From a virus: a stretch of 64,000 nt of DNA. A program made the position numbers and the translations under genes. Below are positions 18,105 to 51,684 of the stretch, in pieces (positions within the stretch are counted from its first letter, which is position 1; the number at the start of each line of letters is the position of its first letter). Where the stretch lies: positions 1-64,000 of IMG/VR virus record IMGVR_UViG_3300045107_000413, one strand, 5' to 3'. The notes beneath the pieces are model-generated. The model ran no database searches, was not told the DNA's origin, and saw only the letters and a program-made list of their open reading frames with translations.

Positions 18105-18301
18105 TGATGCTGATACCGTAGGCGGGTCATGGAGCAGTTACCAGACGCTGGCTTTTCGAGAGCGTTGTGCCTGTTGCGGGAAGAAAACATTTCTCGGCTG
18201 GTGGATGGTCAATGAGGAACGCACGCGCTTCAGAGATGGAACAGAAGCCGTGCATTGAGAACTGTTCTGTCGTCCTGCGTGTGAGCGGAAGGGAAGCGGG
18301 A

Positions 18302-18622
18302 ATGAGCAAAATGGGTCTGTACCGGCTCTATGAAGACGTATCCGAAAAGGCGTTTCAGCAACAGGTGATACAGGTGGCACGCCTGACGGGGCATCTTGCC
18401 TATCACACGCTGCATAGTATCGGCAGCGAGCCAGGTTTTCCTGATCTGGTGCTTGTGCATCCGTTGCGTCCCTCATTGCTGATGCCTGAACTCAAGAGTG
18501 AGCGGGGAAGACTCACCAGAGCGCAGGAACGTTGGCTTGCTGCCTTGCGCGCGAATGGGGTGGAAGCGCCCGTATGGCGTCCCCATGATATTGATGAGAT
18601 ATTGGAAAGGCTCAAACGCTAA
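18302..18622 (+). CDS. VRR-NUC nuclease
   Basis: SEKAFQQQV, GFPDLVLV, ELKSERGRLTRAQERW, VWRP. Confidence 0.92.
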   Translation: MSKMGLYRLYEDVSEKAFQQQVIQVARLTGHLAYHTLHSIGSEPGFPDLVLVHPLRPSLLMPELKSERGRLTRAQERWLAALRANGVEAPVWRPHDIDEILERLKR

Positions 18623-19834
18623 TGCACTACCCGCCAGAACTGCCTGCGCTCAATGTTACATGGGAGCATGAGCAGGCGACAACCATCATCCACCGCTACT
18701 GCCGCGCGGGCCTCACCCTCGGCCTCTCGCGTATTGCAACGCTCTTACGCGCGGCACCTATTGCCGCAGAAGAGTGCGATGAACTCCTCTCCTGCCTTGC
18801 CCACGCGCGCCATCATGCAGAGCGGGATATGTGCCGCTATCAGGCAGACATAGTAGGGAGGCTGCAATGAGGAAGCAAGATGACCTTTGCGACCCGTATC
18901 ACCTGAGCCGCCTGGATGAGTACCTGCTCGTGCGTGATTTTTGATGATGAGGATGGAGGAAATCCATCCAGGAGGTGAGGGATGCAACGAACACGAACAT
19001 ACCCCTTCTGGCTGCGCTGGTTACACGCCCGTTTCTGTGAGTGGCTAGAGCAGTACGAGCAGGCCCGCGCCTGGTCAGCGCGCCATTGCCCCTGCTGCGG
19101 CACGCCCGTCTCCTCACATGACGCCCGCTACTGCGCCATGTGCGGGCAGTGCCTGCTGGTGGAGGCGCGGGTGACGGACAGCCTGCCAATAGCGCGCCTG
19201 CACAGTGGGGAGTTGCTGCGCGCCTATCGGGACAGGGAAGGCCATCGGGCGGGCGTCTCTACCACCGAACACCGCGCCTATGTGCGCACGCCGGAGAACC
19301 ACCAATGAAGGAGAAACCGATGCCTACAACGCCCTTGCTCTACCCTGCTGCCGTCATCGCGGCCTTTGTCTATCTGCTGCTGGTGTGCCGCCTTGTCGTC
19401 ATCGTGCGGGAGTCCCTTGCTGTGCTGCGTGCCAGTAAACAGCATCACCCCGTTTGCTGGCTTGCCCCCGATGACGCACTCTGGTTAGACGCCGTGTTCA
19501 GTGATGCCTATGAGGAGTTGACCGAGTGCGACGACTAGGGATACGGACACTGTTCCGTTTGCTGGCACGGACGCGGCAGGCACCGCCCGTTGCGCCCCTG
19601 GTGCTGCGACGCCGTGAGAAGGGGCTGTCATGGGAGGAGTACGTGGCCTTGCAGCGCGTTTCCCTGGCTGCTGATGTGCAACTCTTTGACGGCTCGCTCT
19701 CCTTGGAGGAATATGTGCGCATGAGTCACCAGACACAGCATGTTACCCGTGTGTTGTACCATCATTTAGGGGCAAGTACGCTCCCCGAATATCTGCTCGA
19801 TGCCCCTACTGAGAAAGTCGAGACACTATGCTAA
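18622..19834 (+). CDS. four small hypothetical ORFs (18622-18870, 18982-19308 zinc ribbon, 19305-19538 TM, 19526-19834)
   Basis: Coupled small ORFs leading into the cas locus; CPCC...CAMC in 18982-19308. Confidence 0.5.
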
Positions 19835-21429
19835 CCACCACCAATCCCTATCAGCAACTCATTACGTCCTATACCACAGCACATGGCTACACCGACAGCG
19901 CGCCCCGCTACCAGCCCTGCCGCGTGACCCTCACCCTGTTGCAGCCCTATGCCGGCTATGACCTCCCGCACCTGGACGGCCTGCTCTCCTCCGTCGTCGT
20001 CACGCAAGCCTTGCAGGGGGCGCGCCTCCCAAAGGACAATACCCTCTATACCATTCCGCTCCCGCTTGAAGTTCTCTGGCGCGACAGCGCAGGCACGCCG
20101 CTCTTCCATGCGAGCAGCCTCTTTCCCGACCCACGCCACAGCAAGCATGTCTTCTCCTGGACAAAGAAAAATGACGAGGTGGCCTCCCGCTTTGCCGAAC
20201 GCAAACGCGACGGCGCGCTCTGGCAGCCCGATAGCGGAAGCGGCCAGTTCAAAGAGTACCGCATGCCCCTTCCCATCACGGCATCGGCCCACTTCACCGG
20301 CTACGCCTACGGGGACACAGAGGAGATAGCGCGCCTCTTGTCACTCCTGCATACGACCGGCAAGAAGGGCGCGTGGGGCTTCGGGCGCATTGCCCGCGTT
20401 GAGGTGGAACCCTGCGGCAAGCCGGGGCGCTACGTCTTTGTGCAGGGCGGGCGACTCCTGCGCCCCGTACCTGCTGCCGCTCTACCTGTGCTTGGACTGG
20501 TAGCAGAGGGAACACCTGTCCTCATCGGCTACTCCCCGCCCTACTGGTTGCCTGCCAAACAGGCGCAGTGCTACCCCGAAGGTACAGCAGTCCGGGAAGC
20601 GGTCAGTGCCGCAAAGCCCGTTGTGATGCCGCGCTGGTCAGTCCCGTCCTTCCTACTGTACTGCCAGCAGCAGGACGCCCTGCGCCGTCACGGTGATCTC
20701 ATCCTGCTCCATGACAAATTCCAACGCGGCAAGGGGGAAGGGGCCTTATGCGCGCTCACAGGACTGCCCATTACTGACGGCGGGGCGGTTGCCGCACGGG
20801 ATGCGCTCTCATCCAATATGGGCAATGTGGTCGATTTCTGCAAGGCCCCGCAGAGTCCCTGGGTAAGCAACGCGGCAGCGATCATCCTCTCACAGCCCAA
20901 GTCGATGCACCGCAACCTGGTGGCGCTGCTCTCGCCGCAAGGAGAGGGACACCTGCTCTGGCCCACCATCGCATTGGATCCAAAGCAGCCCGAGGCTGTG
21001 CGACCACTGTGGCGGGAGGTGCTACTGGTGCTGCACGAGCGGTATATGGGCTATCAGTGCGTGGTGATCTACAAGGATGAGCCGAAGTCACGAACGTGGC
21101 CACGCGCCAGGATCGGCGTGGTGGGCGCTTCTATGCCCATCCATTTTTCGGATAGCACGTTCGGTATCTCGAATCTGCTCGTCGTCGATATCGAGACAGT
21201 CGTCGAGCAGATGTCCTTTATCGAGTCGCTACTCGATGGGGGCTATGGCAAGACCCAGATACGGCTTGGTCTGCGTGCGCCTTCGATCGAGAGGCTAGCA
21301 CGCACATTGCAAGCAGAAAAGCGCCTGGCCGCGATGCGCATAACGGCTGAATTTCCCCTGGCATGGAGCGCGGCCAGGACGACCGAAGATCGAACGTTAC
21401 GAAAAGGAGTACAACCCGATGTCGACTAG
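19828..21429 (+). CDS. csf3-csf1: type IV Cas fusion: Csf3 (Cas5-family RAMP) N-terminal, Csf1 (Cas8-like) C-terminal
   Basis: Csf3 motifs HLDGLL, IPLPL, GQFKEYRMP, GDTEEIARLL, GKKGAWGFG, RPVP, PPYW; C-terminal CALTG...DFCKAPQSPWVS resembles a degenerate Csf1 Zn-finger region. Confidence 0.8.
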   Translation: MLTTTNPYQQLITSYTTAHGYTDSAPRYQPCRVTLTLLQPYAGYDLPHLDGLLSSVVVTQALQGARLPKDNTLYTIPLPLEVLWRDSAGTPLFHASSLFPDPRHSKHVFSWTKKNDEVASRFAERKRDGALWQPDSGSGQFKEYRMPLPITASAHFTGYAYGDTEEIARLLSLLHTTGKKGAWGFGRIARVEVEPCGKPGRYVFVQGGRLLRPVPAAALPVLGLVAEGTPVLIGYSPPYWLPAKQAQCYPEGTAVREAVSAAKPVVMPRWSVPSFLLYCQQQDALRRHGDLILLHDKFQRGKGEGALCALTGLPITDGGAVAARDALSSNMGNVVDFCKAPQSPWVSNAAAIILSQPKSMHRNLVALLSPQGEGHLLWPTIALDPKQPEAVRPLWREVLLVLHERYMGYQCVVIYKDEPKSRTWPRARIGVVGASMPIHFSDSTFGISNLLVVDIETVVEQMSFIESLLDGGYGKTQIRLGLRAPSIERLARTLQAEKRLAAMRITAEFPLAWSAARTTEDRTLRKGVQPDVD

Positions 21430-22918
21430 CGTAGTAGCGTTGTTATCCGCTCAGACCAGTATTGCCCATGGCGACCCGGGGGCCTCTGGCACGAGCAATG
21501 TGACCCCGTTTCGGATGCAGCAGGTTCTCTATCCCCGCGCCAATACACAGCCCCTTACTGATGACGTGGAGGCCATTGGTGAAGAGCCTGCCGCTCTGCG
21601 TATCCGTGCGATTCATGAAGCAGAGACAGCCATCCGTGAGCTGGCCCGCTCCTATCCGCTGCCCGCCGACAGCTACCTTGCCCTTGCCCTGCAAGGGCTC
21701 CAGGCAGAACAATTCATTGCCTCCGCCTTTGTCTATTCGCTTATCAGCCAGCTCAACAGCATGAATGGCGGGGATGGTGCAGGTCTCTTCTCCGGCATAG
21801 AACGCTATGATATGCTCTTGAAGCGCCTGGAGATCGTGGCGAACCAGTACCAGACCAGCATGTTCACGCTCTACGCGGCCCTTTTGCGCCAGCTGGGCAT
21901 CGAAGAGAGCCTGCCGAAGATGACGGATATCCTGTGGAGGTATGCCGCGCTGCCGCGAACGGTGCAGCAGTCCGTCATTGCCACGCTGGGCGCTGACCGG
22001 CAGGCGGTGGTGACGATTGCGCGGGCCTGGTTCGAGGATGAGCGGGCGCGCAGGCGCGGGCGCAAGGAGCAGGAAGAATGGGGGCTGTTTGAGGAGACTG
22101 ACTACTATGACCCCACCGGCAAGGTCGCTGGAACCTCGCTCACCTTTGCCGAGGCGGCGATCCCGTGGGTCTCCAGCAATACGTTCCGGCATACGGTCTT
22201 CCGCGAGACGCTCTGCAATCATCTGCTGGAGGCGCTCGAATTTGGCTCTCTTGCCGAGGTGGTCTCCCGCAAGGCGCTTCCTCACTACGTGATCCAGCTG
22301 CTGTCCAATGGCGGCAACGTCAAGGCCAATGCCAAAGCCCCCGATTACAGCAATGCCATTAATCTGGCGGTGATGGGCCTTTTCCCCTCACTGGAACTGC
22401 TCTCCGGGTGCCTACCCACCCACATGATGGGTGAGGGGGCGCTTTCGGTTGCCGACTGGACGCTGTGCCTGCAAAACAATGAGAATACTGCACCGCTGGG
22501 CTACATCTCCGATGTCGATGCGGCGAGCATGCTCACCATTGAGACGCACACACGCCATACGCCGCCGGGGATGGGCAACGATAAGGAAAGTGGGCAGATG
22601 CTTTTCAGCCATACCGTCATGAAGCCGGGGTGCCAGGTGCTCTTCGAGTTCAGCGTTGCGCCATTTGCCTCCCACCTCGCAAAAGGTGCTGCCTACTTTG
22701 CGTACCGCAGCTGGCTGGCGGCAGGAGGGCAGGTCGGTGGCCACGACAATATCGGGGAGGGGCGGTTCCGGCTGGTGGAGCAGCGAGGCGTCGAGGAGGA
22801 ACTGGAGCGCGCAGCCGTCGATTATCAGCGGTATGTGGATCAGCACCGCGATGCGTTGTACGAGGCGCTGGCGACCGGGACGATGGGCTGGAAGGAACGG
22901 TTGCCAGCGTGGGGGTAG
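21419..22918 (+). CDS. csf2: type IV Csf2 (Cas7) with internal Cas11-like helical insertion
   Basis: TSIAHG...TPFR, IPWVSSNTFRH, LLSNGG, FPSLELLSG, THTRH, QMLFSHTVMKPG, G-rich loop GGHDNIGEG; about 200-aa helical insert between FR and IPWVS. Confidence 0.85.
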   Translation: MSTSVVALLSAQTSIAHGDPGASGTSNVTPFRMQQVLYPRANTQPLTDDVEAIGEEPAALRIRAIHEAETAIRELARSYPLPADSYLALALQGLQAEQFIASAFVYSLISQLNSMNGGDGAGLFSGIERYDMLLKRLEIVANQYQTSMFTLYAALLRQLGIEESLPKMTDILWRYAALPRTVQQSVIATLGADRQAVVTIARAWFEDERARRRGRKEQEEWGLFEETDYYDPTGKVAGTSLTFAEAAIPWVSSNTFRHTVFRETLCNHLLEALEFGSLAEVVSRKALPHYVIQLLSNGGNVKANAKAPDYSNAINLAVMGLFPSLELLSGCLPTHMMGEGALSVADWTLCLQNNENTAPLGYISDVDAASMLTIETHTRHTPPGMGNDKESGQMLFSHTVMKPGCQVLFEFSVAPFASHLAKGAAYFAYRSWLAAGGQVGGHDNIGEGRFRLVEQRGVEEELERAAVDYQRYVDQHRDALYEALATGTMGWKERLPAWG

Positions 22919-22920
22919 CA

Positions 22921-23400
22921 ATGCCTGATCTCATCCTTGTTATCGGGCCATGTGGCGCGGGCAAAACCACCTATGCACGGACGCACTATCCGCAGTACCT
23001 GCATGTGGACTATGAGCGGCTCATCCAGTCGCTCTTTGCCGAGCCTGCCCACTTTCGCTTCTATCCCCATGTGCGTACCTGCGGCGCGCTCCTCTTTGAT
23101 GCAGCGGCCCGTCACCTCATTGCAAAGCGGCAGAATGTCTGCCTCACACTTGGCGGGGCGACGCGCCAAGAGCGCGCAAAATACGTTGATCTGGCCTTTG
23201 ATACCAATATGGATGCGCACTGCATTCGCTTGCTGGTAGACCGGGATACCTGTATTTCCCGTGCAAAAGCGGACACACTGCGCCCTGTTTCTTCCCGACC
23301 TTCCTGGCAAGGCGTGGTCGATCACTGGTTTGCTGCCTGGGAACCGGTCGACGCCGTGCAAGAGGGATTCGCGTCATACCAGGAGATTGAGAATGGATGA
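22921..23400 (+). CDS. P-loop kinase (AAA_33 / polynucleotide-kinase-like)
   Basis: LILVIGPCGAGKTTYAR, TRQERAKY, TCISRA. Confidence 0.85.
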   Translation: MPDLILVIGPCGAGKTTYARTHYPQYLHVDYERLIQSLFAEPAHFRFYPHVRTCGALLFDAAARHLIAKRQNVCLTLGGATRQERAKYVDLAFDTNMDAHCIRLLVDRDTCISRAKADTLRPVSSRPSWQGVVDHWFAAWEPVDAVQEGFASYQEIENG

Positions 23401-24190
23401 GATGGAACGGCTGCAACATGATCTCTATAGCCGCACCAACGCTTTCAGGCGCAAGTTGGACGTGGCGCAGTGCGCCATCAATGAGGGGTTAGCCGCAATG
23501 GGAAGCACGCCCTACGTCTCATTTTCAGGTGGCATCGATAGCACTGTGTTGCTTGACCTGCTTTTCTCACAGGATGTCCGCCTACCCGTTCTCTGGGGCG
23601 ATGACGGGGCTGATTTCCCCGTCACGCTTCAGTTCCTCTCAGACACCCAGGCGCGCTACGGCTTCCATCTCATCCGTATTCGCAGCATGGCCCCCTGGCG
23701 CGCGTGGTGTCAGGAGATGAGCCGCCCCGACCTCTCCGATGACCCGGAGGCCAGAGACGCCTGGCTCAACCCACGCATCTGGAATGATACCTGGCACACC
23801 CTTACCCGCGACGCGCCTGCACATGGCTACACAGGCGTCTTCATGGGCATGCTGGCAGCAGAATCGCGTGCGCGCTCCTATGTGTTGCATCAGGGACGTC
23901 GCACTCTCTATCAGGTCAAGGGTGAAGGCGGCATGTGGCACTGCTCTCCGCTTGCCGGTTGGAGTAAGCGTGAAGTCTGGGCCTACGCCGTCTCAAGAGG
24001 GCTGGCCTACAATCCTGTGTATGACCGGCTTGCTGAATTGCACATCCCACTAGCATATCGCCGCGTCGCCGCCATGACGTGTTATCGGGTACTCCAATGG
24101 GGTAGCCACGCGGGCCAGTTCAGATACATCGATTCCGACCTCTCCAACCGACTGTGCACGCTGTTCCCTCGCCTGCGCGCTTTCAGCTAG
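23393..24190 (+). CDS. cysH: CysH-like PAPS-reductase-family (PP-loop) protein
   Basis: YVSFSGGIDSTVLL, AAESRAR, CSPLAGWSKREVWAY, YNPVYD; typical partner of type IV-B loci. Confidence 0.9.
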   Translation: MDEMERLQHDLYSRTNAFRRKLDVAQCAINEGLAAMGSTPYVSFSGGIDSTVLLDLLFSQDVRLPVLWGDDGADFPVTLQFLSDTQARYGFHLIRIRSMAPWRAWCQEMSRPDLSDDPEARDAWLNPRIWNDTWHTLTRDAPAHGYTGVFMGMLAAESRARSYVLHQGRRTLYQVKGEGGMWHCSPLAGWSKREVWAYAVSRGLAYNPVYDRLAELHIPLAYRRVAAMTCYRVLQWGSHAGQFRYIDSDLSNRLCTLFPRLRAFS

Positions 24191-24201
24191 TTTCGTACGT
24201 G

Positions 24202-24247
24202 CAAAGAGGCGCTGCTTCCCATTCATCGTGGAAGCAGCGCCTCTTTG
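24202..24247 (+). terminator. terminator of the cas operon
   Basis: 18-bp perfect stem CAAAGAGGCGCTGCTTCC / GGAAGCAGCGCCTCTTTG. Confidence 0.8.
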
Positions 24248-24341: not shown

Positions 24342-24380
24342 TTGACAATCTGTATACATTGGTATACAATCGTATACAGA
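24342..24380 (+). promoter_or_regulatory. sigma-70 promoter with overlapping GTATAC operator repeats
   Basis: TTGACA-17-TACAAT; three GTATACA units; TCTGTATAC...GTATACAGA inverted pair. Confidence 0.85.
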
Positions 24381-46638: not shown

Positions 46639-49600
46639 TCATTGATACCCCACCAGTGGACTGCCATACGTCGCCTGTGCTGAGCCATACGCTGCCGCCG
46701 GTATGCCGCCGATGCCCGTAGTGCCTGTGACCGTGACCGCCACGCTGTCCCGAAAATTCACCGTCTCCGTTGCCATCAGGTCAATGCTAGGCGCGGGCGC
46801 AGTCACCGGCCCGTAGTAGGAGGCCGTTGAGCCGCCGCCCGTCGTGCTGCTCACCTGCATACGCAAGAGCGTGGTGAGGATATTCGTCAACTCCGGGTTG
46901 AAGGCCCCCAGGTCGCACTGGCACTCATAGAGGGCTTGCCCAAGCGAGATGAAGCCCTTCAACACCAGCGTCACCTTCTGGATGATGAAGGACACGCGAA
47001 AGAAACTGTCCGTGCGCGACGTGAAGTAGACGGTATAGCCGGGGGTCATGAACTGGTTGGTAGAGAGGTGGATAATCGGGCGGGAGTAGCCGTATTCGCC
47101 TGCCTCGCCAATCCCCGCGTCAATGGCCGCCTGCACAGATGCTAAGGCGCTGTTATTCACCTGCCGCCAGAACATGCCAGAACTACCGAGGCGCTGGCTG
47201 TAAATGGCAACACTCTGCGCGTCAATCACAATGGCTGCGATCCCTGATGCCCCCGTCACATAGATGGCATTGCCGAGTTGCGTCCCGTCAATGTCACGGG
47301 TGTAGTCATAATACGCAAAGCTCACGATGTCATCCGGGGTATCGGATAACTCGAAGTTCAGCGTATTGTACCCCGGCGGCTGGTAGAAGATCGTCCAGTA
47401 ACTATCTACCCCGTAGATGTAGTTGGAGTTGGTCGCCAGCGCATCAAAGGCATCACGCGCCGTGCCGTTGTACTGGTAGGAGAGCGTATTCTGGAAGCCG
47501 TTGGTGGATGCGACATTCGCCGTTGAGAACACGCCGCTAAAATACTTGCTCACGATGCTCGTGATGATGCTGCTATCCGACTGGTTTGTCCACGTGTCAT
47601 TGAGTATCTGCTTTTGCAGCAGCCACGCATAGCCGGAGACCGTGACCGCCCACTGCCGGTTCGGCCCGATATGCGCCCCGGCAGTGGCTTTGGTGATGAC
47701 GCCGCCAAAGAGGCGCAACTGGCGGATGGCCGTGCCGTTGGGAAGCGCCACGCAGTTCTCTTGCCCGGCGGCGCACCAGGGCGTGGGGTAGGCAAGCTGG
47801 TAGTTCTTGCCTTGCGCAAAGGTCATGGGTTCGAGCATCGCCTGGGTAAAGGTGACGCTGCCGCTATTGGTTGCCCCCGTTGCCGTTGCCAGCAGTTGCG
47901 CTTGCAGGGCGGCTGCCCCTGCTGGCACGCTGACCTGCACGCTGTAGCGCGTCGCGGTGGCGCTCACCGGGGTCGGGCCGTCAAAGCGGACGCTTGAGAG
48001 TTGATTGCCGTACTGGTCAAGCAGGAAGACGCGCAGGGAGGCGGAGAGATTGACCGGGGACGCCCCCTGCACGGTGGCACTCAGCATGTAGGACTGACCT
48101 GCGACGATCATGCCGTTTTGCGTGGTCTGCGTCAGGTAGCCCACGTTGCCATTTGCCGCGTTCGCAAAGGTGATTTTGCCGCCGCCCCCGCTACTCTGGC
48201 TGTAGGAGATGCCCGTCTGGGCTGCGCGCGCGCTCCAGGCCGTCGTGTAGGGATTGAGCGCCGGGTTGAGCAAGAGGTTATGCGTCGGCTCCGGGATTTG
48301 TCCCGCATCCACAAACACCACCTCTTGCAGTTCAGAGAGCGGGATATGGGAGGGGTCATCTTGCAGGGTAAAGCTAAAGGTCGGGATAGGGTCGGATGCC
48401 GTGCGCTCCACGGAGATGCTCTCCTGCAAGAGCGTGGGGTAGAGGACGTCGTTGATAAGCAAAAACACCGGCCCCGGCGTCTGCGTGATGACGGGCGGGG
48501 TAGGCGTCGCGGCAACGAGCGCCAGGCCGTAGGCATAGTGGGATTGCACCGCCGTTGCCGATAAGCCTTTCGCGTAGATCGCGCACTCATCGAGGGTGCC
48601 GGGGAAGAAATCACTTCCCTTCTGCGGGTCATAGCCGAGGGAGAGCGTGCTTCCTGTGTCGTCAATTTGCCCCGTGACCTTGCCCGTCGTGCCGTTTGCT
48701 TGCCCGTTCACATAGAGCGTGATGGTGGTGCCGTCCCAGGTGGCAGCCACATAGTACCACACCCCTGCCTGGAAGGTCTGCGAGAAGGTGGCCTGCCCCC
48801 ACCTGTCTCCCTCCACGCCCACCGCACAGCCGCCGCCAGAGCCGCCTGCCCCAATCCAGAAGTCGATGCCGTCCCCGGAGTTGGTGGGCGTGGTTCCCGT
48901 TGCCCACAGCGTTGCCTTGTGGCTAAAGGTGTTGTTGGCAAGCTTCACCCAGGCTTCCAGCGTGAGCTTGTTCCAGCCGACCGGGGATGGCCCACTGCTA
49001 CAGACGAGGTGGGAGGAGGTGCCGTTGAAGAGGTAGGCCGTGTCGCTATCCCCTGCGAGCGCCCCCGCCTGGGAGTAGGTGATGCCCGTGCAAGTGGCCG
49101 TATTGTTGTTGCCGGAGGAGTCATGGGCGTTGCCTGACGCCTCATCCATGCGGTAGTACGCCTGCGGGCCGTCCTTCAAGATACCGGTCGCGTAGGGGAT
49201 GAAGGTGCCGGGCGTGCCACTACCGCCCCCGCCGCTGCCTGTGCCGCCACTGCTGCTCGTCCAGGTGGGGTACTGCTGCGCGTAGGCGCAAATCATGCCA
49301 TACGTTGGCTCGAAGGTGAAGACGCCGCCAATGGTCTGCGTGACGGACTTTACGGCCTGCGACTGCGCCGGGTTGGTCGTCGTGGTCACGGTATTGAACT
49401 GCGCGTTATCGGTGAAGATGAAGCCATATGTCGCCCCGCCTGCGCGCAGGGCGTCCAGCATGGCTTTGCTGTAGGTGGACTGCACGGCTGTACTGACGGG
49501 CGTCTGTGTGGTCTGCGCGTACACCTGGATACCGGAGGCATGCGTTGAGGCAGGTGTCCAGGGGGAGACGGCGACTGTCCCATTCTGAGAGCCTAATGGA

Positions 49601-51684
49601 TTGGTGGTAATGGGGAGCGTCGTAGCGTTCTTGGCAATCGTCCCGTAGGCATACACCTTTTCCGTCACGCCGGTGTTGCTGTAATCCACAAAGATGGGCG
49701 TGCCATCGCTGATGGAGGCAGGATGGGTGTAGGCGCTGCTCACGGCGAGACTGCTGTAGGCCGTGCCTGCGCTATAGGTCGCAGTCGTTGTGGTGAGTGC
49801 GCCGCCCCCGTCATCATAAATCGACCAGCCAAACTCGGCGCAGGAGAGGAGCGGATTAATCGAGTTGGCAGCAAAGATGGCCTGCAAGTCGAGGAGTTCC
49901 TGCGCGACACTTGGCGCGTTGATTTGTGATTGCGCGGCATCGGCAAAGGTAGATTTCGTCGGGTCTTGTTGCAGCGTCACCGTCCCATCCGGGTTGACGG
50001 TCGTCGTGCCATCTCTATAGTAGTGGAAGTCGACGCCTAAGAGCGTTCCCCCGGAGGCCGCCACCTGGCTGACCAGCCCCGTCATCCAGTTCTGGATATG
50101 CGCGCGCCCCGTCACGGCTGTCTTGCGCACCGCGCAGGCAAAAACCGGCGTTGCCGCGCAGCCCGGCACCGCCGCAATCGCTTGCTGCACCGCCACATAG
50201 GTAGGGGCTAAGATCGCCCCGCCGTTGTCCCACGTGCTGCTCATGTCCCAGGAGGCAGGCGAGCCGCCTGAGGTGTTGTAACTGCCTTGCCCCTGCACGC
50301 GCTGCTGGATGTCGGCGTTCTCGTTGTAGACCTGATAATTCTCGACGGTGCCAAAGCCGGTTTGCCCGTTGTAGCGCGTCGCCACGAGCGTCGCAAAGGC
50401 TACCATATCGGCTGTTGCCACCAGTTGCCCCGTCGCCTGCGTCGCCTCCCGCACCGGCTCGCCGGGGGAGTGCGTGTTGACCGGGTTCCAGCCGACCTGA
50501 CTGCTCTTCGAGGTGGAGATGCCGATAGAGGTTGCGCCCGCCGTGTAGGTATGGTTCGGGTTCCAGATAAATACCGTCTCGGCTGATGCTAAGCCCCAAC
50601 CAACCTGAATTTGATAGCCATGTGGCAGGTAGGCCCCGGCAGGCAGCGCGCTAATCGAGAGGTTGGTGTAGGCGGTGCCGTGCGTGTAGGTGCCATTGAG
50701 CGTCGCATTGGAGCCAAAGGCATCAAGGGTGAGTCGCCACGACGGGGCGTTGTCAAAGGCGAACCAGAAGCGAATGCCGGAGTAGTTGCACTTCTGCACG
50801 TGGTCATCCATCACGCCCCAGTCATAGAAGCCCTGGTAGGGTTCAATCGGCCCCCACTGCAACTGATCGCGCAGGGTCGGACTGGTGGTACTCGTCTTCC
50901 AGCCGGTGCTGCTGACGGAGTTCGGCCCCACCATATCGGTAATGAGTTGGGCGGGAAGGGGCGGCGGCGTCTTGGCGGTAAACCACGTGTTGCCGTATGG
51001 GCCTGCGGCAAGCGTGTTGTAGGCAGGCACGGTCGCAGGCGGCGGGTTATCGGTAACCGTGAAATTGTCAAAGGTCGCGCTTTGCCCGCTCGCAGTCGCC
51101 TGATAGAAGAGGCCGAAATTGCCAGGGCTGGTAAACGTCGTGTCAGCCACCTGTACCATCCAGCCCGCTGGTTCCCCTGAAGGGGTACTCCCTGCGCCCG
51201 CATTGGGGTCGGCCCAGAAGTTGCCCTTGACGTTGTTATTGTCATTGGGGTTATCCCCGAAGCCGCGAATACGCAAGTGCAGCCAGTAGTAGGTAGAGGC
51301 GGCAAAGGTGACAGTCGCGGTTTTGAGGCTTGTCGCGCTCGTGTTGTCTTTGATGAGGGAAAGCGTACTGCCTGTCACACTGAGGCGGTAGTCCTTTGTT
51401 GCCCCTGTCGCGCGGGAGACGAGTCCGACCGTAACCGCCGTGTTGCTCACTAGCACGCGCACATAGAGGTCGGTATCGGTAAACTGATTGGTGCCAAGCC
51501 AGAAGACGTTAGCGGCGGTATCACCGCTCAGTTGCCCGCGCTTCTGCGATGCAGCGGTGATGATCGTGGGGGTAGAGGCCCCGCTTTGTTGCGCCCACGT
51601 TTGCCCGCCGGAGGAGGGGTTCCAGCCGCTCGTCTTGGTATTAGAAAAACTGTCCTGAGCGTAATTTTGCAGGGTGTAGGTCAT
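46639..51684 (-). CDS. large tail protein: clan GH-A glycoside hydrolase, LamG/ConA-like and CBM-like domains, tail hub region
   Basis: WGPIEPYQGFYDW, YQVYNE, DFHYY, AEFGW; AYYRMDE, TLEAWVK, WYYVAATWDG, LYVNG, GTLDECAIY. Confidence 0.85.
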   Translation of the reverse strand: MTYTLQNYAQDSFSNTKTSGWNPSSGGQTWAQQSGASTPTIITAASQKRGQLSGDTAANVFWLGTNQFTDTDLYVRVLVSNTAVTVGLVSRATGATKDYRLSVTGSTLSLIKDNTSATSLKTATVTFAASTYYWLHLRIRGFGDNPNDNNNVKGNFWADPNAGAGSTPSGEPAGWMVQVADTTFTSPGNFGLFYQATASGQSATFDNFTVTDNPPPATVPAYNTLAAGPYGNTWFTAKTPPPLPAQLITDMVGPNSVSSTGWKTSTTSPTLRDQLQWGPIEPYQGFYDWGVMDDHVQKCNYSGIRFWFAFDNAPSWRLTLDAFGSNATLNGTYTHGTAYTNLSISALPAGAYLPHGYQIQVGWGLASAETVFIWNPNHTYTAGATSIGISTSKSSQVGWNPVNTHSPGEPVREATQATGQLVATADMVAFATLVATRYNGQTGFGTVENYQVYNENADIQQRVQGQGSYNTSGGSPASWDMSSTWDNGGAILAPTYVAVQQAIAAVPGCAATPVFACAVRKTAVTGRAHIQNWMTGLVSQVAASGGTLLGVDFHYYRDGTTTVNPDGTVTLQQDPTKSTFADAAQSQINAPSVAQELLDLQAIFAANSINPLLSCAEFGWSIYDDGGGALTTTTATYSAGTAYSSLAVSSAYTHPASISDGTPIFVDYSNTGVTEKVYAYGTIAKNATTLPITTNPLGSQNGTVAVSPWTPASTHASGIQVYAQTTQTPVSTAVQSTYSKAMLDALRAGGATYGFIFTDNAQFNTVTTTTNPAQSQAVKSVTQTIGGVFTFEPTYGMICAYAQQYPTWTSSSGGTGSGGGGSGTPGTFIPYATGILKDGPQAYYRMDEASGNAHDSSGNNNTATCTGITYSQAGALAGDSDTAYLFNGTSSHLVCSSGPSPVGWNKLTLEAWVKLANNTFSHKATLWATGTTPTNSGDGIDFWIGAGGSGGGCAVGVEGDRWGQATFSQTFQAGVWYYVAATWDGTTITLYVNGQANGTTGKVTGQIDDTGSTLSLGYDPQKGSDFFPGTLDECAIYAKGLSATAVQSHYAYGLALVAATPTPPVITQTPGPVFLLINDVLYPTLLQESISVERTASDPIPTFSFTLQDDPSHIPLSELQEVVFVDAGQIPEPTHNLLLNPALNPYTTAWSARAAQTGISYSQSSGGGGKITFANAANGNVGYLTQTTQNGMIVAGQSYMLSATVQGASPVNLSASLRVFLLDQYGNQLSSVRFDGPTPVSATATRYSVQVSVPAGAAALQAQLLATATGATNSGSVTFTQAMLEPMTFAQGKNYQLAYPTPWCAAGQENCVALPNGTAIRQLRLFGGVITKATAGAHIGPNRQWAVTVSGYAWLLQKQILNDTWTNQSDSSIITSIVSKYFSGVFSTANVASTNGFQNTLSYQYNGTARDAFDALATNSNYIYGVDSYWTIFYQPPGYNTLNFELSDTPDDIVSFAYYDYTRDIDGTQLGNAIYVTGASGIAAIVIDAQSVAIYSQRLGSSGMFWRQVNNSALASVQAAIDAGIGEAGEYGYSRPIIHLSTNQFMTPGYTVYFTSRTDSFFRVSFIIQKVTLVLKGFISLGQALYECQCDLGAFNPELTNILTTLLRMQVSSTTGGGSTASYYGPVTAPAPSIDLMATETVNFRDSVAVTVTGTTGIGGIPAAAYGSAQATYGSPLVGYQ

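What the first reader, a model, noticed from the sequence alone, without database searches (positions are those of the whole stretch)
19828..24190. Phage-borne, two-protein type IV-B-like Cas effector (Cas5-Cas8 and Cas7-Cas11 fusions) with kinase and CysH, and no CRISPR array
Seen: four coupled genes ending in a strong terminator. Gene 1 has clear Csf3/Cas5 motifs joined to a Csf1-like half. Gene 2 has clear Csf2/Cas7 motifs. Gene 3 is a P-loop kinase and gene 4 a CysH-like PP-loop protein. No cas6, cas1/2, dinG or array is present in the window. Established: type IV-B loci normally encode csf1, cas11, csf2, csf3 and cysH as separate genes, usually lack arrays, and have no settled function. 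Inference: the four effector subunits are condensed here into two polypeptides in a phage early operon. This would be a minimal class 1 ribonucleoprotein that could use non-CRISPR RNAs, sequester host crRNAs, or steer a nucleic-acid-modifying CysH/kinase pair.
Basis: partly seen in the sequence, partly recalled or inferred. Interest (0 to 1): 0.92.

Follow-up and report, generated by a model that had tools for sequence, protein, structure and literature searches.

The report
Compact array-less phage type IV-B module

Summary
Window 19828-24190 carries four tightly packed plus-strand genes that end in a strong hairpin.

- **Gene 3:** an AAA_33 P-loop kinase. It is not conserved: the one related locus that shows this position has an unrelated 200-aa gene there.
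- **Gene 4:** a CysH-like protein, 29-30% identical end to end to the CysH of canonical IV-B plasmids.

The 122.5-kb virus record has no CRISPR array and no detectable Cas1, Cas6 or DinG. It does have a separate TIGR-like 35-nt array outside the window.

The family is rare: 13 and 20 metagenome proteins, none in phage, plasmid or reference-genome collections.

Earlier notes of this scan describe the same layout on other DNA. I found no paper that describes it.

Verdict: a new variant of type IV-B. Its function is still unknown.

The parts
19828..21429 (+). Gene 1, 533 aa: Cas5(Csf3)-Csf1 fusion protein
   Evidence: The ORF is. There are 13 full-length relatives of 496-568 aa, 45-84% identical.
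19909..20586 (+). Cas5/Csf3 RAMP domain of gene 1 (residues about 28-253)
20596..21426 (+). Divergent Csf1 (Cas8-like) half of gene 1 (residues 257-533)
   Evidence: Profile A3 found 173 proteins at E<=1e-3, mostly standalone ones of 111-327 aa. 3 of 10, then 5 of 25, of the aligned relatives match PADLOC Csf1_0_IV, best E 1.1e-16. hhalign A5 against Rhodococcus Csf1 gave probability 39%, E 3.1e-4, over 201 colinear columns. There is no direct Csf1 model hit. Only the first Cys of the Csf1 zinc ribbon is kept (C308).
21419..22918 (+). Gene 2, 499 aa: Csf2 (Cas7) with an internal helical domain
21536..22153 (+). Helical insert of about 205 aa in Csf2 (residues about 40-245), between strand 1 (invariant T-x3-HGDPG) and the IPxISSNxFRH helix
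   Evidence: Present in all 17 aligned relatives. The model shows eight helices. Canonical Csf2 has about 42 residues before the same motif. A Cas11 identity is not supported by sequence and was not tested by a fold of the insert alone.
22921..23400 (+). Gene 3, 159 aa: P-loop kinase of the AAA_33 / polynucleotide-kinase-like kind; a lineage-variable accessory gene
   Evidence: AAA_33 E 3.9e-11. Bacterial Pnkp kinase region E 7.4e-4. PHROG polynucleotide kinase E 2.9e-4. Unrelated to the gene at this position in L002.
23393..24190 (+). Gene 4, 265 aa: CysH-like PP-loop protein of the IV-B type
   Evidence: PAPS_reduct E 2.7e-16. 30% identity over 209 aa to the Rhodococcus IV-B cysH (E 4e-19). 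29% identity over 245 aa, to the last residue, with Mycobacterium sp. JS623 (E 9e-19). 48% identity to the L002 copy. The SGGxDS motif is intact.
24201..24247 (+). Terminator hairpin closing the operon
   Evidence: Fold energy -40.5 kcal/mol, z -8.8. The next operon starts at a TTGACA-17-TACAAT promoter at 24342-24370.

Best explanation
This is a compact, array-less derivative of a subtype IV-B CRISPR-Cas (Csf) effector module, carried by a tailed phage.

**Shown.**
- Gene 1 joins Csf3 (Cas5) to a divergent Csf1 (the small Cas8-like subunit).
- Gene 2 is Csf2 (Cas7) with a conserved helical domain of about 205 aa inserted in its palm.
- Gene 4 is the IV-B type CysH-like PP-loop enzyme.
- The slot between genes 2 and 4 holds a variable accessory enzyme, here a polynucleotide-kinase-like P-loop kinase.

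**Inferred, by analogy with solved IV-A and IV-B complexes.**
- Several copies of the Cas7 protein wrap an RNA in a helical filament.
- The Cas5-Csf1 fusion caps one end of that filament.
- The inserted helical domain takes the place that the separate Cas11 filament has in canonical IV-B, because no cas11 gene is present.
- The CysH-like enzyme uses ATP to adenylylate or otherwise modify a nucleic acid held by the complex. The kinase, or in relatives another enzyme, acts on the same substrate.

Which RNA is bound and what the target is are unknown.

The confidence given is for the identity of the module. The mechanism steps are much less certain.
For: **Domain identities.**
- Csf3 domain.
- Csf2.
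- Csf1 by transitive homology.
- CysH is closest to the cysH of canonical IV-B plasmid loci.

**Selection and linkage.**
- The genes are intact and conserved in 13 (gene 1) and 20 (gene 2) metagenome proteins. Many contig lengths are shared between the two lists.
- The same gene order, Cas5-Csf1, Cas7 with insert, one extra gene, CysH, is seen in L002.
- Start and stop codons overlap or nearly touch.

**Absences in the genome.**
- No separate cas11, csf1 or further RAMP relative.
- No array, Cas1, Cas6 or DinG.

**Literature.** IV-B loci are array-less, linked to cysH, carried on mobile elements and of unknown function (PMC8175902 and PMC7038947, passages; still stated in 2026 in PMC13676074).
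Against: - No Csf1 model hits the window's own protein. The family-only comparison with Rhodococcus Csf1 is weak: probability 0.8%.
- The insert shows no likeness to Cas11.
- The kinase is not conserved. Only one related locus shows the downstream genes.
- The gene order and the fusion differ from canonical IV-B (csf1-cas11-csf2-csf3 with a divergent cysH).
- Nothing here shows RNA binding, complex formation or enzyme activity.
- Both structure models are of middling confidence: pLDDT 68 and 66.
Confidence: 0.7

Rival explanations
1. Same parts, but the complex is a counter-defence decoy. It soaks up host crRNAs or other guide RNAs without sequence preference and so blunts host RNA-guided immunity during infection.
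For: - It is phage-borne, has no array and has no RNA-processing enzyme.
- The purified IV-B complex bound heterogeneous non-CRISPR RNA (PMC7937560 abstract; PMC8175902 passages).
- This idea is already in print (PMC7038947 discussion).
Against: - It gives no role to the strictly linked CysH or to the variable enzyme slot.
- The authors who raised it called it unlikely because it is so complex for an anti-CRISPR.
- No host or host CRISPR type is known here.
Confidence: 0.12
2. The RAMP proteins have been taken over as a scaffold for a phage nucleic-acid modification pathway (kinase or another transferase plus the PP-loop enzyme). The pathway marks phage DNA or RNA, with no RNA-guided targeting at all.
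For: - The enzyme in the third slot varies: a kinase here and an unrelated 200-aa protein in L002.
- The PP-loop enzyme family includes DNA-modifying DndC and BrxP. There are weak hits to both.
- The operon sits among replication and nuclease genes: DnaB and VRR-NUC.
- Earlier scan notes report IV-B modules interleaved with DNA-modification enzymes (untested here).
Against: - The Cas7 strand 1 loop and the Cas5 and Csf1 cores are strongly conserved, as expected for a true RNA-binding Csf complex.
- The kinase is not conserved.
- No modification chemistry can be read from the sequences.
Confidence: 0.13
3. The helical insert in Cas7 is not a Cas11 equivalent. It is a lineage-specific enlargement of the Cas7 'fingers/lid' region, and the complex simply lacks a small subunit, as IV-A complexes do. 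This rival concerns one part only and is compatible with the module identity given above.
For: - No sequence or fold match to Cas11.
- IV-A systems work without Cas11 (PMC7038947 passages).
Against: - Its size (about 205 aa, eight helices) fits a small subunit. So do its 1:1 stoichiometry with Cas7 and the lack of any cas11 gene in a CysH-linked, IV-B-like module.
- Cas11 proteins are notoriously hard to detect by sequence (recalled).
- Earlier scan notes report Cas11-Cas7 fusions in phage IV-B clades (not tested here).
Confidence: 0.4
4. A decaying, non-functional remnant of a type IV system.
For: - No array.
- No detectable partner genes.
- The sequences are very divergent.
Against: - All four ORFs are intact and packed with overlapping start and stop codons.
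- There are 80 and 73 invariant columns across relatives that are 45-84% and 42-63% identical.
- The same layout is kept in L002 at about 50% identity.
Confidence: 0.03

Closest known systems
Subtype IV-B CRISPR-Cas (csf1-cas11-csf2-csf3 plus a cysH-like gene), e.g. Mycobacterium sp. JS623 pMYCSM02 (PDB 7JHY) and Rhodococcus plasmids
   Same: - Csf2, Csf3 and Csf1 homologues are present.
- A CysH-like gene of the same clade is present: 29-30% identity over the full length, including the C-terminal tail.
- There is no array, Cas6, adaptation genes or helicase.
- It is carried on a mobile element.
   Different: - Csf3 and Csf1 are one polypeptide.
- The gene order is changed.
- There is no separate cas11. 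Csf2 carries a helical insert of about 205 aa instead.
- cysH is in the same operon rather than divergent.
- An extra kinase is present.
- The Csf1 zinc ribbon is degenerate.
- It is on a tailed phage from hot-spring and mat samples, not an actinobacterial plasmid.
Putative subtype IV-E (Pinilla-Redondo et al. 2020, PMC7038947)
   Same: A Csf3-Csf1 fusion is described there (passages read). The PADLOC Csf3-Csf1_0_IVE model matches gene 1 at E 5.3e-5.
   Different: - That match covers only the Cas5 part (residues 137-258).
- IV-E is described as related to IV-A and associated with arrays. Neither DinG nor an array is present here.
- This locus has CysH instead.
Virus-borne IV-B: 'Fuxiviridae' archaeal viruses (PMC10848311) and PHROG families 34599 and 22746
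   Same: IV-B effector genes plus a CysH-like gene are encoded by viruses (passages). Phage families the size of canonical Csf3 and Csf2 match genes 1 and 2.
   Different: - Fuxivirus has separate csf1, cas11, csf2 and csf3 genes and a mini-array.
- The PHROG families are 243 and 304 aa long and match only the RAMP cores.
Type III-E Cas7-11 and type III-D fused effectors
   Different: Those are type III, array-linked and RNA-cleaving. In them the domains are joined end to end, not inserted inside one Cas7 palm.

Membership tests
Type IV CRISPR-Cas, subtype IV-B | Csf2 (type IV Cas7) | tested here: met
Type IV CRISPR-Cas, subtype IV-B | Csf3 (type IV Cas5) | tested here: met
Type IV CRISPR-Cas, subtype IV-B | Csf1 (small Cas8-like large subunit) | tested here: met
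   Met only transitively.
- The C-terminal profile finds standalone proteins at E down to 1.5e-21.
- 5 of 25 aligned members hit Csf1_0_IV, best E 1.1e-16.
- hhalign to Rhodococcus Csf1 gave probability 39%, E 3.1e-4.
- Direct Csf1 models give no hit on the window's protein.
Type IV CRISPR-Cas, subtype IV-B | Separate cas11 (small subunit) gene | tested here: not met
   There is no such gene in the operon. No ORF in the genome matches a profile of 7 IV-B Cas11 sequences at E<1. Whether the Cas7 insert replaces it is unresolved.
Type IV CRISPR-Cas, subtype IV-B | Adjacent cysH-like gene of the Cas-associated clade | tested here: met
   Pairwise E 4e-19 and 9e-19 to the cysH of two canonical IV-B loci. 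The best PDB CysH scores 4.2e-7 in a database search. No tree was built.
Type IV CRISPR-Cas, subtype IV-B | No CRISPR array, Cas6, adaptation module or helicase | tested here: met
   Caveat: the Pfam models are insensitive here. A non-CRISPR array with a 35-nt period lies at about 72.6-73.3 kb of the genome.
Putative subtype IV-E | Csf3-Csf1 fusion together with DinG and a CRISPR array | tested here: not met
   A fusion is present. The IV-E fusion model matches only the Cas5 part. DinG and an array are absent.
Cas11 small-subunit family (for the gene 2 insert) | Sequence or fold likeness to Cas11 | tested here: inconclusive

The most novel reading that the evidence does not exclude
The helical insert is a built-in Cas11. 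This phage clade would then make a complete class 1 effector from only two polypeptides. That effector would load a phage-encoded non-CRISPR RNA, possibly from the TIGR-like array or another phage transcript. It would bring the CysH-like adenylyltransferase, together with a swappable enzyme such as the polynucleotide-kinase-like protein, to a complementary nucleic acid and chemically mark it rather than cut it.
Probability: 0.15. Interest if true: 0.85.

Novelty: new variant of a known kind. Interest (0 to 1): 0.6.

Why it matters
Type IV-B is the one widespread class 1 CRISPR-Cas subtype whose function is still called unclear in a 2026 paper (PMC13676074). Neither its RNA nor the architecture of its complete complex is known. 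In the only IV-B structure, Csf1 and Csf3 were not resolved (PMC8175902 passages).

A natural version with Cas5 tethered to Csf1 could be easier to purify, image and load with RNA. Cas7 carrying its own extra domain, and CysH sitting in the same operon, should help too.

The variable enzyme slot next to CysH (a kinase here, another protein in a relative) hints that the output is a chemical modification. That gives a concrete assay to try.

Tried and rejected
**Tried without result.**
- Direct family searches of the C-terminal half of gene 1 and of the gene 2 insert gave nothing in Pfam, NCBIfam, PADLOC or PHROGs.
- The protein atlas gave no usable lead for either part.
- Foldseek row 8rc3_G (E 3.1e-3) could not be assigned to a region of the model.
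- BFVD gave 0 matches at E<=0.001.
- Complex prediction of the Csf1-like half with gene 2 returned no verdict.
- No relatives of gene 1 or gene 2 were found in IMG/VR or reference genomes. Gene 1 has none in INPHARED phages.
- In plasmids, only distant Csf3 hits were found.
- The standalone Csf1-like protein P0072 has no match in plasmids or phages.
- Cluster look-ups gave no names for the standalone relatives.
- No RNA holder was listed among the sequencing runs.
- No mini-array or repeat lies near the operon.
- Rfam found only tRNAs in the window.
- The ORF upstream of gene 1 is not conserved.

**Rejected.**
- The kinase as a core component.
- Membership of IV-E.

**Limits.**
- Papers were seen as search listings, abstracts and found passages only.
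The supplementary locus tables of PMC7038947 and PMC12669027 could list this layout.
- The claim that it is not in print rests on searches and on the passages.
Full report
**What is there.**
The window is the first 64 kb of a single 122,512-bp virus record of 56.6% G+C. CheckV rates it 100% complete. It encodes a DnaB-like helicase and a tape measure protein. Near-identical DNA occurs in hot-spring, microbial-mat and mine metagenome runs (some of these may be the source sample).

On the plus strand, four genes are packed head to tail:
- 19828-21429 (533 aa)
- 21419-22918 (499 aa)
- 22921-23400 (159 aa)
- 23393-24190 (265 aa)

The junctions are an 11-nt overlap, a 2-nt gap and an 8-nt overlap. 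A hairpin of -40.5 kcal/mol (z -8.8) closes the unit. A near-consensus promoter at 24342-24370 starts the next one. No convincing promoter lies just upstream of gene 1. The ORF that overlaps its start is not conserved in relatives. The operon probably begins further upstream, and the 'early' label is untested.

**Gene 1.**
Residues 27-250 are a type IV Cas5/Csf3:
- PADLOC E 1.2e-37 and TIGR03116 E 1.9e-12.
- A family profile hits the PDB Csf3 7xfz_B at E 6.7e-13.

The C-terminal 277 residues gave nothing in Pfam, NCBIfam, PADLOC, PHROGs, the atlas or the whole-model fold searches. They are nevertheless the most conserved part of the protein.

A three-sequence profile of this half (window, L001, L002) was run against 1.84 billion representatives. 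It found 173 proteins at E<=1e-3 and 67 at E<=1e-10. Of the 150 listed:
- Six are fused forms of 532-609 aa.
- One is 435 aa.
- The rest are 111-327 aa, many matched over nearly their whole length.

Links to Csf1:
- I scanned ten of these proteins, and three matched PADLOC Csf1_0_IV (P0116 at E 9.1e-14 over model positions 22-208 of 227).
- I then aligned the three query sequences with 22 standalone relatives of my own choosing, favouring high-ranked and well-covered ones. Five of these 25 matched the model, best E 1.1e-16. The window's own sequence did not.
- That 25-row alignment, compared with ten Rhodococcus-type IV-B Csf1 proteins, gave probability 39% and E 3.1e-4 over 201 colinear columns.
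- The fused family alone gave only probability 0.8%.

I read this as a true but very divergent Csf1. The CxxC...CxxC ribbon of the Rhodococcus proteins is reduced to one conserved Cys, C308.

**Gene 2.**
Residues 245-485 match type IV Cas7 models (E 1.5e-19) and Rhodococcus Csf2 (hhalign probability 90%). The model (pLDDT 66) aligns to:

Both alignments span model residues 3-484. So the invariant N-terminal strand and its T-x3-HGDPG loop belong to the Cas7 palm. Residues about 40-245, eight predicted helices, are an insertion inside the fold. Canonical Csf2 has about 42 residues before the same IPxISxNxFR motif.

All 17 aligned relatives carry the insert. I aligned 17 of the 20 found. I dropped three partial ones and used the 499-aa start for the window, which the relatives support.

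I could not show that the insert is Cas11:
- hhalign against one and then seven IV-B Cas11 sequences gave probability 0.07% and 0.24%.
- The PDB profile search found no Cas11 chain.

No ORF in the genome matches the Cas11 profile at E<1. The insert is therefore the only candidate for a small-subunit role, but that argument rests on absence.

**Genes 3 and 4.**
Gene 3 is a Walker-A kinase:
- AAA_33 E 3.9e-11.
- Weak likeness to the kinase part of bacterial Pnkp (E 7.4e-4; PDB rows at E about 0.2).
- A PHROG polynucleotide kinase family (E 2.9e-4).

Gene 4 has the SGGxDS PP-loop. It is 30% identical over 209 aa (E 4e-19) to the cysH of a Rhodococcus IV-B locus. It is 29% identical over 245 aa, up to the last residue (E 9e-19), to that of Mycobacterium sp. 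JS623, the source of structure 7JHY.

**Relatives and context.**
- Gene 1 has 13 relatives and gene 2 has 20, each count including the window's own protein.
- Nearly all are unnamed metagenome proteins. One is a hypothetical protein of Pseudacidobacterium ailaaui.
- Seven contig lengths are shared between the two lists, so the two genes travel together.
- L002 shows the same order: Cas5-Csf1, Cas7 with insert, one gene, CysH (48% identical).
- The third gene there is an unrelated 200-aa protein with no family hit.
- L001 ends inside gene 2.
- The conserved core is therefore three genes plus a variable slot. The kinase is an accessory gene of this phage.

**Absences and one caveat.**
The whole genome has no CRISPR array by TRF or by my k-mer scan, which covered spacings of 40-110 nt only. 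It has no match to Cas1, Cas6_C, Csf4/DinG or Csf1 models. These models are insensitive here, since the Pfam RAMPs model misses gene 2 itself.

Outside the window, at about 72.6-73.3 kb on the minus strand, lies an array with a 35-nt period. It sits behind a 403-aa ORF. Earlier notes of this scan read it as TIGR-Tas-like. It is not a CRISPR array, and I have no evidence linking it to the Csf genes.

**Comparison with what is known.**
- Canonical IV-B loci read csf1-cas11-csf2-csf3 with a cysH-like gene nearby (PMC7038947 and PMC8175902 passages).
- A Csf3-Csf1 fusion is described for the array- and helicase-linked subtype IV-E. The IV-E fusion model matches only the Cas5 part here.
- IV-B modules in viruses are known: Fuxiviridae with separate genes and a mini-array, and PHROG families of canonical size.
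- I found no description of a IV-B module with both the fusion and the Cas7 insert. This rests on five searches and on the passages read, including the 2025 classification update and the 2023 rare-systems survey. Supplements were closed.
- Within this scan the layout has been noted before on other DNA. One note describes a Cas5-Cas8 fusion, a Cas7 with a built-in helical domain, CysH and a swappable enzyme. Others report Cas11-Cas7 fusions in phage IV-B clades. I did not test those notes.

**How it most likely works.**
Shown: the domain identities, the linkage and the conservation.

Inferred from solved IV-A and IV-B complexes:
- A Cas7 filament forms on an RNA.
- The Cas5-Csf1 fusion caps it.
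- The insert stands where Cas11 would.
- CysH acts on a nucleic acid held by the complex, helped here by a kinase.

The bound RNA, the target and the chemistry are unknown. The complex prediction gave no verdict, and no RNA runs were listed.

**Verdict.**
This is a new variant of a known kind. Its interest lies in being a simpler handle on the unsolved IV-B question.

Noticed in passing
Own genome, about 72629-73279 (L003:1130-1780), minus strand, outside the window: An array of units with a period of about 35 nt (GAGTGAGCCA-like and GAGCAGGCA-like boxes separated by variable 8-mers). It starts at the stop of a 403-aa ORF (L003 1777-2988) and ends in a hairpin. Earlier scan notes call it TIGR-Tas-like. 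TRF and my CRISPR scan both missed it.
   Followed up: partly
window:46514-46610 (+): A second tRNA-like element. It scores 34.5 bits with the Rfam tRNA model, but ARAGORN does not call it. It lies just downstream of the 1681-aa minus-strand ORF at 46639-51684.
   Followed up: no
window:24342-24378: A near-consensus promoter (TTGACA-17-TACAAT, 11 of 12) overlaps a short 10-nt tandem repeat (ACAATCGTAT-like, 3.3 copies). This could be an operator at the start of the operon that follows the Csf module.
   Followed up: no
L002:7044-7646: The gene in the kinase slot of the related locus is a 200-aa protein with no family hit. An N-terminal VVIPT and a later EDD motif recall GT-A glycosyltransferases (recalled, not tested). 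An earlier scan note on other DNA also names a GT-A protein in this slot.
   Followed up: partly
window:14770-16380 and 18167-18622: A HerA/FtsK-like ATPase (AAA_16, DUF87 and TrwB hits) and a VRR-NUC nuclease lie upstream on the same strand.
   Followed up: no
L006:1282-2588 (Mycobacterium sp. JS623 pMYCSM02): In the reference IV-B locus, cysH is followed on its own strand by two hypothetical genes of 140 and 294 aa. CysH may therefore have co-transcribed partner genes in canonical loci as well.
   Followed up: no
BFVD entries A0A0N7CBP1 (137 aa) and A0A8S5MXU3 (144 aa): Two small viral proteins matched part of the gene 2 model with Foldseek probability 1.00 and 0.97 but E about 0.07-0.14. 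The matched region is unknown. Their size is close to that of Cas11.
   Followed up: no
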